DNA of 64,000 nucleotides. Source: Malacoraja senta (taxonomy: Eukaryota). The stretch covers positions 434,001 to 498,000 of the forward strand of contig CM075993.1 in NCBI GenBank assembly GCA_038087875.1, written 5' to 3'. This document shows positions 42,001-45,000 of the stretch, one piece after another; the stretch's first letter is position 1, and each line of letters starts with the position of its first letter. The position numbers were made by a program.

Positions 42001-45000
42001 CCCACTTGTAAACAATAGTTTAAAATAAAAAGGTAGGATATTTCACCCAAAAACATGGAAATAAAAAAAATGCAGTTTACTCCTGCACAGTTACATGAAA
42101 TACCAACTCAACATAGGATACGTTTAAATCACACTATATTTGGTTTTACTGAAATAATTTCAATTTACCAAGTACAAATCCAGCATTACTCTGAGGGTAG
42201 CTAGGGTAGGTTACAAGACTCAGATTACAAGCGGCTTGCTCCTCTCTACAGGTGTTTGGAATCCTTTAGTGCCGTCTGGTCCTCTGGGCATACGTACTAC
42301 TCCTGCAGGCAGCCCGCCTGCACTGTGCATCTTTCTAGAAAGCATGGGGCTGCCAACTGGAGTATTCTCATGGGATACCCCCTGCGCTTGCTTCCGTCTC
42401 TGTACCCAGGGGCTGCCGGACGGTGTGTTGCTGCTGTCCGATGAATAGTCCGTCCACTTACTTGCAACCTCAGCATTTGCAGGAGCTCCAAGCTTAGCAT
42501 CTGCAGTGAGCGGAGATTTGTGCGCAGCCGTATCTTTCCGTTGCATCGATGGGCTGGAACGCGGACTGTTCCACGGACTAGCTCGGGGAGAAGTGTTAGG
42601 ACTCAGGTGATTGTTTTTATAGGTGTTGGGGCTCAGCTGATTAATGGGTTTGGGTTTGCGGCCAAGCATAGGAGATGCAGGGTTGCTCTCTGGTTCAGAA
42701 GAGCTGCATGCTGAGGAATCTTCATATATATACTGCAACTCCTCCACTCGCTTATTGCTTGATTTGCTTTTCATCTCATTCTTGCCAACATCTTCAGCCT
42801 CTTTGTTCTTCTCTCTGACAACTTTCTTCTTTGGTGGTTTCATCTCTATTAGCACCACTTTCATTCCCCCTTCATCGTTTTTCCAAGTGATTCATGTGCC
42901 TTGATTGCAGATTCAACATTTTTCATACTCTACAATTACACAGTCCTTTGTTCCCAACTGTGAATAGCGATTGCCCAGTCTTTTCACATCTGCAGGGAGC
43001 TCCTTCCCTGGCTTTATAACACGAACAGAGATGACTGGACCAAACACACCAAATGCCTTCAGTACGTACTCCATTATCCTTTCTTGCAAGCCAGCATTTT
43101 CACATTCTAGATTATCATTTAAAACCTGGAGTTCTGGACACAGAAGCATATCATATACCAGCAGTATCTGACTTGGAAGATGCTCACTTGGGAAAACTGG
43201 AACGGCTGTCTTCCGTCTCACTTTTTTCCCTTCATCATTTAGTTTCCAAAAGGTCAGAGTACTTCAGAGCAAAGGCAGTGTTTGCCAGTCACGAGTGAGG
43301 TGTTTTACCTAGAACAAAAGATTCCATTTTATCCATGCCTATTCAACAGGAATGAACACCTGGACGATTCACTTAATTATAGTAATGAAATATCAAAGCA
43401 GTTAAACCATTGCAGAGGGAATAGACAGACGATGCTTCGGCTGGGACCTTTCTTTAGATTGAAGGAGGGTTGAGAATGCTGATAAAGAGAGATGGGGAGG
43501 GGGCGAGGCATTGCAAGTGATAAGTGGAAACAGACCTCCGCTCTGTTCGCAAAATCCAACCTGATCTCCTGGTGGCTCAGCACTTCAACTCCCCCTCCCA
43601 TTCCGAATCCGACCTTTCTGTCCTGGGCCTCCTCCATGGCCAGAGTGAGGCCCACCGTAAATTGGAGGAGTAGCACCTCATATTTCGCTTGGGCAGTTTA
43701 CACCCCAGCGGTATGATCATTGACTTCTCCAATTTCAGGTAGTCCCTGCTTTCTTCTTCCCAGCTCTCCCCCAGCCCACTGTCTCCGCCCCTTCCTTTCT
43801 TCTTCCCGCCCCCCCCCCCCCTCACATCAGTCTGAAGAAGGGTCTCGGCCCGAAACGTCGCCTATTTCCTTCGCTCCAATAGATGCTGCCTCACCCGCTG
43901 AGATTCTCCAGTATTTCTGTCTACGGTGGATACAGACGAGAGGTTTGATGGGCAGATGAGTGGAATAACTTAAAAAGGCTGGAGGTGAAGAGGAGACTAT
44001 CAGATAATAAGAAAGAAATGTATAGCTGGGAGGGATGTGGGGTGCACAGGGATGGGCGGCGGCCTAATGCAAGGCCTCTTTCCCATACTGTATCTGTAAA
44101 CTAATTTAGGCTATCTAGACTACTGAGCCTGTCCTGCCATTATCAAGATCGAGGCTGATCACCTTCCTCAGCTTCACTTTACAATCCACATCCCTCAGTC
44201 CCCTATTATCCAGAAATCAATCATTGTCATTGGAAAGAATATAGCCTGAGGATTCCACTGATTCACTATCCTTTAAGGTGCACTTTTTTGATAAACTGTG
44301 CTCCCCGATCTCGGACTCCTAAGCCGTCTGATGTCAAGCCCAGGAGCCCTTTAACTATTTTGTTTAGATCTGCTCTCATCATTGTAAATTTGAGATTATA
44401 ATCCACTCACCCTATTCTACGGCAAACATCCCACTTTTGGAATAGTCTAGTGAACCTTCACTAGAATTCCACTATGGCAACTATTTTCATTCTTAGGTGA
44501 GACAAAAACTAGTAAATATGGCGTCACCAAGAACGTATAGAACTGAACTGATTTTTTTCTGTATTCAAATCCTCCAAATACTGTACTACATTCCTTTTGA
44601 ATGACTCGCTGCACCGGCTCGATGTTCAGTTACTTGTGCAAGAGCAAACTTCAGTCTCTTTGAACATCCACACTGCCCAGTTCCTTACAATTTAAAACTT
44701 TCTCCAGTCTGTTTGAGCATTAAAATGGCGACCGCACATTATATTCCATCTGCCATGTTCTTGCCCACTCACCCAGATTGTTTGTATCATCTTGACCCTC
44801 TGTCTTCATTGCTCGATCTCACCTTGTTTAGTGTTGGATGTGAATGATTTGGATGTGGTCAAACTAGGTGCCTATGTGGCTGTTGGATGAAATGAGGGCT
44901 TTATTCTGTTTGAATACATGGTAGTGATAACATTAAATGGTTTGCTGGCCCATTGCAATGGAACACAATAGTTAGTCTAGGGGCTAGTTCAGGGCAAGGA

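What the first reader, a model, noticed from the sequence alone, without database searches (positions are those of the whole stretch)
42878..43283. LARP6 exon 3 has two compensating frameshift pairs that create three in-frame TGA codons
Seen: relative to the LARP6 consensus there is a -1 at about 43279-43283 and a +1 at 43243-43245 (TAFALKYSDLLE lies off-frame). There is then a +1 at 42919-42923 and a -1 at 42878-42882 (NVESAIKAHESL lies off-frame). Each shifted window is about 40 nt, the net frame is preserved (1089-nt exon), and the downstream 214 codons are intact and conserved. All four indels are in or beside A-runs of the mRNA strand. I found no frameshifts in the other three genes. Options are (a) local homopolymer consensus errors, the most parsimonious; (b) recent loss of the collagen 5'-stem-loop-binding protein in a cartilaginous fish, with La module and RRM disrupted; (c) recoding or transcriptional slippage, least likely.
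Basis: partly seen in the sequence, partly recalled or inferred. Interest (0 to 1): 0.65.

Follow-up and report, generated by a model that had tools for sequence, protein, structure and literature searches.

The report
LARP6 exon frameshifts, probably assembly errors
The last exon of an otherwise intact LARP6 gene in this fish-like window carries four one-base slips that break its reading frame; they are more likely local sequence-consensus errors than a real gene loss, and only reads from the animal can settle it.

Summary
On the minus strand, a 1089-nt last exon (43308..42220) of a LARP6 gene has three internal in-frame TGA codons. Two short blocks encode LARP6 sequence one base out of register. 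Each block is entered and left by opposite one-base shifts, so the net frame is kept.

The rest of the gene looks healthy: ATG, two canonical introns, La motif with its RNA-pocket residues, LARP6-type RRM1, SUZ-C motif, terminal stop and a 5' CpG island. It lies beside a TM2-domain gene and a ThrRS-like gene, as zebrafish larp6a does.

Recoding is rejected. There is no slippery heptamer, no downstream structure and no SECIS, and four serial shifts would be needed.

Assembly error and real inactivation cannot be separated without reads or sister-species orthologs, and neither was available. I favour local consensus run-length errors (about 0.58) over a real, very recent null allele or pseudogene (about 0.33). 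A uniform error model fails, because one-base indel noise elsewhere in the window is much lower, so the artefact reading needs a local failure. The two-close-opposite-pairs pattern is unexplained under either reading. Interest is low.

The parts
46126..46301 (-). LARP6 coding exon 1: ATG at 46301-46299, 176 nt, donor gt at 46125-46124.
   Evidence: Read from the DNA. The frame is open over 58 codons. No reference match was available for this exon.
45793..45979 (-). LARP6 coding exon 2 (187 nt), holding most of the La motif. Acceptor ag at 45981-45980, donor gt at 45792-45791.
   Evidence: 2mtf_A residues 10-69, E 2.2e-25, 45 of 60 identical. Pfam La, 51.7 bits, profile positions 2-42 of 59.
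42220..43308 (-). LARP6 coding exon 3 (1089 nt): end of the La motif, linker, RRM1, disordered tail, SUZ-C motif and stop.
43267..43288 (-). Switch 1, a one-base deficit (-1). Best placed at 43279-43283 (CAAACAC).
   Evidence: Limits set by stops in the two frames. The codon count of 22 equals the 22 human residues.
43244..43279 (-). Block 1: 12 codons (TAFALKYSDLLE) one base out of register, equivalent to human residues 148-159 in the C-terminal part of the La motif.
   Evidence: Residue numbering comes from an offset of 68, checked against T133, RR168-169 and PVP172-174. Homology of the block itself rests on recall.
43264..43266 (-). First in-frame TGA (exon-3 codon 15). If real, the product ends after 135 residues.
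   Evidence: The count is 58+1+62+14.
43238..43263 (-). Switch 2, one extra base (+1). Best placed at 43243-43245 (GAAAC).
   Evidence: Read with one step here, the frame runs straight into the linker that matches 2mtf_A residues 91-115.
42919..43188 (-). Entry-frame part of RRM1.
   Evidence: 2mtg_A residues 2-89, E 5.6e-27, 46 of 90 columns identical by my count of the match line.
42916..42929 (-). Switch 3, one extra base (+1), in the AAAAA run at 42923-42919.
42864..42920 (-). Block 2 (NVESAIKAHESLGK..) one base out of register. Its first 12 residues align to 2mtg_A 89-100, which is human 265-276 (RRM1, from just after the RNP1 strand into the next helix).
   Evidence: 8 of 12 identical to human. 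Pfam RRM_1 profile positions 38-63 appear only in this reading.
42913..42915 (-). Second in-frame TGA.
42892..42894 (-). Third in-frame TGA.
42864..42891 (-). Switch 4, a one-base deficit (-1), in AAAAA at 42882-42878 or GGGGG at 42870-42866. The position is not resolved.
   Evidence: Stop limits. This loop is not covered by any match.
42256..42300 (-). SUZ-C motif near the C-terminus.
   Evidence: Pfam PF12901, 27.8 bits, cut-off 21.1.
45793..46571 (.). CpG island over the LARP6 5' end.
   Evidence: GC 0.68 and CpG observed/expected 0.84, against 0.40 for the whole window.

Best explanation
This is the tetrapod-type (larp6a-type) LARP6 gene of a fish-like, probably cartilaginous-fish, genome. 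Its last exon as written carries four one-base run-length changes (-1, +1, +1, -1).

Most likely these are local errors of the assembled consensus in the most A-run-rich part of the coding sequence, and the animal's gene is intact and encodes a normal protein of about 483 residues.

Shown: the four shifts, the three TGAs, and the integrity of everything else. Inferred: that the shifts are not in the animal's DNA.
For: (1) Every lesion is a single-base change at or beside a short homopolymer, and there is no other kind of damage. The ATG, both GT-AG introns and the terminal stop are in place, and 176+187+1089 = 1452 nt = 484 codons.

(2) The displaced blocks still read as LARP6. Block 2 is 8 of 12 identical to human and restores a Pfam RRM_1 match, so the shifts are evolutionarily very young or not real.

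(3) Functional residues are kept: Q99, F102 (as Y), Y103, D112, F114 and F135, plus T133 and RR168-169 (alignments; residue roles from passages).

(4) The 5' CpG island is undecayed.

(5) The 425-nt zone holds 8 of the 15 A/T runs of 4 or more found in all 2601 nt of checked coding sequence. Run-length errors would therefore concentrate there.

(6) From general experience, not from a call: single-base frameshifts in conserved genes of draft vertebrate assemblies are more often consensus errors than real losses. The window also holds a 317-N run, which may be an assembly gap.
Against: Indel noise elsewhere in the window is low. There are 0 frameshifts in 2176 nt of other checked coding sequence (p = 7e-4 for all four falling in the zone under a per-base uniform model).

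Among intra-window repeat pairs at least 90% identical there are 2 one-base gaps in 937 columns, against 0.94 per 100 nt in the zone. Over all 46 pairs kept there are 45 one-base gaps against 1010 mismatches. An ad hoc local failure must therefore be assumed, in a unique exon of ordinary GC content (0.47) that has no local repeat.

Two sites are runs of only three A, while the AAAAAA run at 43230-43225 is intact.

The arrangement as two close opposite-sign pairs is not predicted by independent errors.

The La motif departs from all 4 distinct solved La motifs shown at two positions, F to L and N to Y, and has AVP where the PVP signature sits. That could mean relaxed constraint.
Confidence: 0.58

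Rival explanations
1. The four indels are real. This LARP6 copy is a very recent unitary pseudogene or a null allele carried by the sequenced animal. Translation would stop at the first TGA after 135 residues, inside the La motif, with no RRM1 or SUZ-C. The stop lies in the last exon, so nonsense-mediated decay would not be expected (exon-junction rule, established knowledge). The product could not bind the collagen 5' stem-loop, which needs both the La motif and RRM1.
For: The lesions are confined to this gene, while other checked coding sequence and repeat pairs show little indel noise.

The La motif has L and Y where all 4 distinct solved La motifs shown have F and N, and A in place of the first P of the PVP signature.

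Loss is tolerable in a fish: zebrafish larp6a;larp6b double mutants, maternal-zygotic ones included, are viable and fertile without bone or fin defects (abstract and sections 6 and 15 of PMC7055395). A second vertebrate paralogue type, larp6b, exists.

Neither isolated domain binds the 48-nt RNA (PMC4288179 passages).
Against: There is no nonsense substitution, no splice-site or start-codon damage, and no larger indel. All 4 lesions lie in 425 of the 1452 coding nt.

The blocks and the pocket residues are still conserved, and the CpG island is kept. The loss would therefore have to be very recent yet already carry four separate slips, two of them in runs of only 2-3 bases, where slippage is rare.

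Compensation cannot have been selected, because both shifted stretches contain stops.
Confidence: 0.33
2. Recoding: ribosomes or RNA polymerase shift frame four times (-1, +1, +1, -1) so that the full protein is made from the sequence as written.
For: All four sites touch A runs. A tRNA-Lys could re-pair after a -1 slip on A_AAA_A at 42882-42878 (read from the sequence).
Against: No X_XXY_YYZ heptamer lies in the incoming frame at either -1 site (sequence; motif from PMC5009743 passages). At both +1 sites the P-site codon GAA would have to re-pair with AAA.

None of the four 86-nt stretches downstream of the sites folds better than its shuffles (z = 0.27, -0.73, 1.02, 0.34).

The A runs are at most 5-6 long, short for transcriptional slippage (my knowledge). 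Four serial low-efficiency events would leave a negligible yield (inference). Corrective frameshifting is known mostly from mitochondria.
Confidence: 0.01
3. The entry frame is the true frame, and the three TGAs are decoded, as selenocysteine or by read-through.
For: All three internal stops are TGA.
Against: TGA is the stop expected when codons ending in T are followed by GAN or AAG-type codons and read one base off (visible).

There is no SECIS or any other Rfam family in 38500-46700 at E of 1 or less apart from sub-threshold miRNA-family hits on a palindrome, and nothing reaches gathering score in the whole window.

The entry-frame reading destroys the homology that the shifted reading restores.
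Confidence: 0.005

Closest known systems
Human LARP6 (solved La motif 2MTF and 9NGX, RRM1 2MTG)
   Same: La motif, short linker with RR, LARP6-type RRM1 and C-terminal SUZ-C motif in the same order. Identity is 45 of 60 (La motif part), 15 of 25 (linker) and 46 of 90 (RRM1). The pocket residues and T133 are kept.
   Different: The reading frame is broken four times. The La motif has L and Y where human has F104 and N108, and A where human has P172.
Zebrafish larp6a (PMC7055395, section 6)
   Same: Three coding exons. It neighbours tm2d3 and tars3/tarsl2. The window holds a TM2-domain gene and a ThrRS-like gene next to LARP6, so this is the larp6a/tetrapod-type gene, not larp6b.
   Different: celf6, the third zebrafish neighbour, was not looked for. 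The zebrafish gene is intact.
Frameshifted gene models caused by consensus indel errors in draft vertebrate assemblies
   Same: Single-base run-length changes in an otherwise intact, conserved gene.
   Different: Four changes in 425 nt, arranged as two compensating pairs, in a window whose other sequence shows little one-base indel noise.
Unitary pseudogenes (recent single-copy gene losses)
   Same: Premature stops produced by frameshifts in a conserved single-copy gene.
   Different: No other decay is seen. The shifted blocks, splice sites, start, stop and CpG island are intact.
Pairs of compensatory frameshift mutations fixed in protein evolution (concept recalled from the literature; one search listed no such paper)
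   Same: Two opposite one-base indels a few dozen bases apart that restore the downstream frame.
   Different: In those cases the stretch between is translated in the new frame and must be open. Here both stretches hold TGA in the new frame and keep the old protein sequence in the old frame.
Programmed ribosomal frameshifting (PMC5009743)
   Same: Frame changes at A-rich sites.
   Different: No slippery heptamer, no stimulatory structure, and four sites in series.

Membership tests
LARP6 (La-related protein 6) | La motif | tested here: met
   Pfam PF05383, 51.7 bits against a cut-off of 37.1, on exon 2 alone. 2mtf_A E 2.2e-25.
LARP6 (La-related protein 6) | LARP6-type RRM1 directly after a short linker | tested here: met
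   2mtg_A E 5.6e-27 for the entry-frame ORF, and E 9.5e-33 when block 2 is read with one +1 step.
LARP6 (La-related protein 6) | C-terminal LSA / SUZ-C motif | tested here: met
   Pfam PF12901, 27.8 bits against a cut-off of 21.1.
LARP6 (La-related protein 6) | Conserved RNA-pocket residues and T133 | tested here: met
   Q99, Y103, D112, F114, F135 and T133 are identical and F102 is Y (alignment; roles).
LARP6 (La-related protein 6) | Three coding exons, with tm2d3 and tars3 as neighbours (larp6a type) | tested here: met
   compared with PMC7055395 section 6.
LARP6 (La-related protein 6) | Uninterrupted open reading frame | tested here: not met
   Three internal TGAs in exon 3.
Assembly consensus indel error | Reads from the same animal disagree with the consensus | not testable with these tools
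   No reads are available.
Assembly consensus indel error | A comparable one-base indel rate elsewhere in the same sequence | tested here: not met
   0 in 2176 nt of other checked coding sequence. 2 one-base gaps in 937 columns of repeat pairs at least 90% identical. Only a local failure would fit.
Assembly consensus indel error | Changes confined to homopolymer run lengths | tested here: inconclusive
   All four sites touch runs, but two runs are only 3 long, and neither the base lost at S1 nor the position of S4 is resolved.
Unitary pseudogene | Disabling lesions present in the genome of the animal | not testable with these tools
   They are present in the window. Whether they are in the animal needs reads.
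Unitary pseudogene | Relaxed constraint on the lineage | not testable with these tools
   No sister-species ortholog could be fetched. The only leads are F to L, N to Y and P to A at conserved La-motif positions.
Programmed -1 ribosomal frameshift | X_XXY_YYZ slippery heptamer in the incoming frame | tested here: not met
   Codons at S1 are CAA ACA C. Those at S4 are GGA AAA ACG or AAG GGG GAA.
Programmed -1 ribosomal frameshift | Downstream stimulatory structure | tested here: not met
   z-scores 0.27, -0.73, 1.02 and 0.34 for the 86 nt downstream of each site.
Selenoprotein gene | SECIS element in the 3' UTR | tested here: not met
   No SECIS hit at E of 1 or less in 38500-46700, and none at gathering score in the window.

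The most novel reading that the evidence does not exclude
The indels are real, and this species or individual has very recently lost the tetrapod-type LARP6, the specific binder of the collagen 5' stem-loop, through four slippage events. A 135-residue La-motif stub would remain. This would be a natural knockout of LARP6 in a cartilaginous fish, in line with the mild zebrafish double-mutant phenotype, and perhaps preceded by the unusual substitutions in the La-motif core.
Probability: 0.33. Interest if true: 0.45.

Novelty: not a real feature. Interest (0 to 1): 0.2.

Why it matters
If the shifts are an artefact, the locus matters only as a marked place where the consensus needs correcting. An automatic annotation would otherwise call LARP6 a pseudogene or a low-quality protein.

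If they are real, this would be a natural loss of the collagen-mRNA-binding LARP6 in a vertebrate that makes little bone. It would add to the zebrafish evidence that LARP6 is dispensable for type I collagen function. That is of moderate interest to people working on LARP proteins and collagen regulation.

Tried and rejected
(1) The short off-frame pieces found nothing on their own. The 22-residue block 2 ORF gave no PDB hit at E of 10 or less. The 27-residue block 1 stretch, with stops read as X, gave no PDB hit and no Pfam hit.

(2) Block 1 read through S2 with one +1 step (39 residues) gave no Pfam family at E of 10 or less.

(3) I aligned the two read-throughs of exon 3 so that my last PDB search would cover both blocks. 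The profile kept only the 108 RRM1-side positions, so block 1 was not tested.

(4) The downstream ORF 42220-42891 gave no LARP6 hit in the PDB. The only hits were weak chance matches to ribosomal protein eL34, E 0.14 and 0.37.

(5) PDB sequence handles cannot be fetched as proteins, so no pairwise comparison with the human chains was possible.

(6) Literature. 'LARP6' with 'shark' found 9 papers, none with either term in the title or abstract. My six-term query was badly set (any 2 of 6 terms), and none of its 15 listed papers holds LARP6. 'compensatory frameshift', 'assembly' and 'homopolymer' (any 2 of 3) listed nothing on paired indel artefacts in assemblies. I found nothing in print on LARP6 in cartilaginous fish within these searches.

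(7) No local repeat or duplication that could explain a misassembly lies in 41500-44500.

(8) Orthologs from other cartilaginous fishes were not obtainable.

(9) Supplementary alignments of LARP6 proteins (supplementary figures of PMC7055395 and PMC4288179) might show whether L, Y and A at the odd La-motif positions occur elsewhere. Supplements are closed and I did not see them.

(10) No structure prediction or complex prediction was run, because none would separate the readings.
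Full report
WHAT IS THERE

On the minus strand the window holds a three-coding-exon LARP6 gene.
- Exon 1: 46301..46126, ATG at 46301, donor gt.
- Intron 1: 146 nt.
- Exon 2: 45979..45793.
- Exon 3: 43308..42220, after a ttctag acceptor.

From coordinates alone the three pieces add to 176+187+1089 = 1452 nt = 484 codons. Each exon was searched by itself, and the joined step was left out. I do not take the window for human. Its LARP6 is 51-75% identical to the human protein domain by domain, and the flanks are full of fish-type interspersed repeats.

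IDENTITY OF THE GENE

- Exon 2 alone matches the solved human LARP6 La motif (2mtf_A residues 10-69, E 2.2e-25, 45 of 60 identical) and Pfam La (51.7 bits).
- The longest entry-frame ORF of exon 3 matches the human LARP6 RRM1 (2mtg_A 2-89, E 5.6e-27) and the linker at the end of 2mtf_A (residues 91-115, 15 of 25 identical).
- The tail holds a SUZ-C motif.
- A ThrRS-like gene lies at about 16.3-31.3 kb on the plus strand. A TM2-domain gene ends near 38.3 kb.

Zebrafish larp6a likewise has three coding exons and neighbours tm2d3 and tars3, whereas larp6b has other neighbours (PMC7055395, section 6). So this is the tetrapod/larp6a-type gene.

THE OBSERVATION

Read in its entry frame, exon 3 has TGA at codons 15, 132 and 139 before the terminal TGA at codon 363. 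Between anchored entry-frame matches, two short stretches make sense only one base out of register.
- Block 1, TAFALKYSDLLE, lies in the -1 frame.
- Block 2, NVESAIKAHESLGK.., lies in the +1 frame.

Stops in the competing frames confine the four switches to 43288..43267, 43263..43238, 42929..42916 and 42891..42864.

Block 2 is now supported by tools. Reading one four-letter step at the AAAAA run lets the match to 2mtg_A run on to residue 100, with 8 of 12 block residues identical. The score is 115.8 bits (profile search) against 97.3 bits (single-sequence search); the two methods are not strictly comparable. A Pfam RRM_1 match also appears over the block (E 5.7e-4, 20.1 bits, just under the 20.7 cut-off) where the unshifted ORF had none.

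Block 1 has only indirect support. Exon 2 ends at chain residue 69, and the linker match resumes with L at residue 92. That leaves 22 human residues for exactly 22 codons. Frame logic alone does not single out the -1 frame there, since the third frame is also open across the first TGA.

Numbering uses an offset of 68 between 2mtf_A and the human protein. It reproduces T133, RR168-169 and PVP172-174 as given in the papers. Block 1 then equals human 148-159, and the first 12 residues of block 2 equal 265-276.

IS THE REST OF THE GENE HEALTHY?

Mostly yes.
- Splice sites are canonical.
- The La-motif pocket residues are kept: Q99, Y103, D112, F114 and F135, with F102 as Y. So are T133 and the RR pair (residue roles from passages of PMC4813270 and PMC4288179).
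- The 5' end sits in a CpG island with observed/expected 0.84, against 0.40 for the window.

Against a clean bill of health:
- The La motif has L and Y where all 4 distinct solved La motifs shown (LARP6, T. brucei La, LARP7, a La protein) have F and N.
- It has AVP where most La motifs have P(V/L)P.

RECODING

- Neither -1 site has an X_XXY_YYZ heptamer in the incoming frame (motif from PMC5009743 passages).
- At both +1 sites the P-site codon GAA would have to re-pair with AAA.
- The 86 nt downstream of each site fold no better than shuffles (z = 0.27, -0.73, 1.02, 0.34).
- No SECIS or other Rfam family supports TGA redefinition.
- Four serial shifts would give a negligible yield.

I reject recoding.

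ARTEFACT OR REAL?

Controls within the window:

(a) The ThrRS-like gene covers residues 35-405 of human ThrRS (4hwt_A) in 9 pieces. Each piece lies in a single frame, and neighbours abut or overlap by a few residues. The one suspiciously close pair is separated by a canonical 73-nt GT-AG intron. So there is no frameshift in about 1149 nt.

(b) Adding the rest of LARP6 gives 0 indels in 2176 nt against 4 in 425 nt (p = 7e-4 per base).

(c) The zone is also the richest in runs. It holds 18 of the 75 A/T runs of 3 or more and 8 of the 15 runs of 4 or more. By hand, if only runs of 4 or more are at risk, three hits in the zone have probability of about 0.15. Part of the clustering is therefore expected under any slippage-like process, whether error or mutation.

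(d) Self-comparison of the window gave 46 repeat pairs. Self hits, mirror duplicates and everything touching the minisatellite at 46.5-47.9 kb were dropped first, and I did not count those. The pairs show 45 one-base gaps against 1010 mismatches. The 9 pairs at least 90% identical show 2 one-base gaps in 937 columns. That is far below the zone's 0.94 per 100 nt.

The window is therefore not generally riddled with one-base errors. The artefact reading needs a local failure, and no repeat, duplication or GC extreme explains one.

The pairing pattern arises in 0.3-0.8% of simulations over the CDS or the exon, and in 3-4% within the zone. It is not predicted by either reading. Selection for compensation is excluded, because both shifted stretches hold stops.

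WEIGHING

Under a real loss, four separate slips would have accumulated. Two of them are in runs of 2-3 bases. Yet there is no nonsense substitution, no splice damage and no divergence of the shifted blocks, and all four lie in 29% of the CDS.

Under an artefact, a local consensus failure hit a unique exon. From general experience, not from a call, one-base frameshifts in conserved genes of draft vertebrate assemblies are more often errors than losses.

The odd La-motif residues and the tolerance of zebrafish to loss of both larp6 genes (PMC7055395 abstract and section 15) keep the real-loss reading alive.

I put the artefact at 0.58, real lesions at 0.33, recoding or TGA decoding at under 0.02, and the remainder on processes I have not thought of.

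CONSEQUENCE IF REAL

Translation would end after 135 residues (58+1+62+14), inside the La motif. The stop is in the last exon, so nonsense-mediated decay would not be expected (exon-junction rule). Neither the La motif nor RRM1 alone binds the collagen 48-nt RNA (PMC4288179), so the product would be a null for stem-loop binding.

WHAT STAYED UNCHECKED

- Reads, cDNA and orthologs of other cartilaginous fishes.
- The N-terminal half of the ThrRS-like gene.
- The exons of the TM2 gene beyond its TM2 domain.
- The identity of a fourth gene suggested by a CpG island at 52.0-52.75 kb.
- Supplementary alignments of the LARP6 papers.

Noticed in passing
window 45880-45910 (exon 2) and 43195-43215 (exon 3), minus strand: The La-motif core reads IEYYLSDVYLEND. 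It has L and Y where all 4 distinct solved La motifs shown have F and N. Five of ten residues here differ from human, while the next 30 are almost identical. The wing-2 signature reads AVP instead of PVP. This could be a lineage feature or relaxed constraint.
   Followed up: partly
window 46572-47819: A degenerate C-rich minisatellite of about 1.2 kb (units of about 17-39 nt such as CCAACCCCCAGCCCCAT) lies directly upstream of the LARP6 CpG island. It is G-rich on the LARP6 sense strand. CpG observed/expected is 0.04, and it gives long Pro-rich pseudo-ORFs.
   Followed up: partly
window 46037-46104: About half of the 146-nt first intron of LARP6 is a (CTCC)n repeat of about 17 units, which reads GGAG-type on the gene strand.
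   Followed up: no
window 40210-40748: A palindrome of about 540 nt lies downstream of LARP6, with nested inverted-repeat arms 83-100% complementary. It draws sub-threshold hits to several miRNA-precursor families on both strands, e.g. MIR8007 at 61.9 bits against a gathering score of 195. It is probably a hairpin-forming transposon remnant.
   Followed up: partly
window 32287-32603: A run of 317 N lies between the ThrRS-like gene and the GC-rich 5' end of the TM2-domain gene.
   Followed up: no
window 30304-30376: A very short (73 nt) canonical GT-AG intron in the ThrRS-like gene. At first sight it looks like a frame change between two close exon pieces.
   Followed up: yes
window 52001-52750: A fourth CpG island (GC 0.62-0.67, observed/expected about 0.9) with no coding gene identified by me.
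   Followed up: no
window 49738-50995 and many short sites (e.g. 45649-45771, 13832-14011, 12342-12540): Retrotransposon debris. One ORF has a weak endonuclease/reverse-transcriptase match (Exo_endo_phos_2, E 0.0087, below cut-off). A short interspersed repeat recurs at 88-96% identity across the window, including just downstream of LARP6 exon 2.
   Followed up: no
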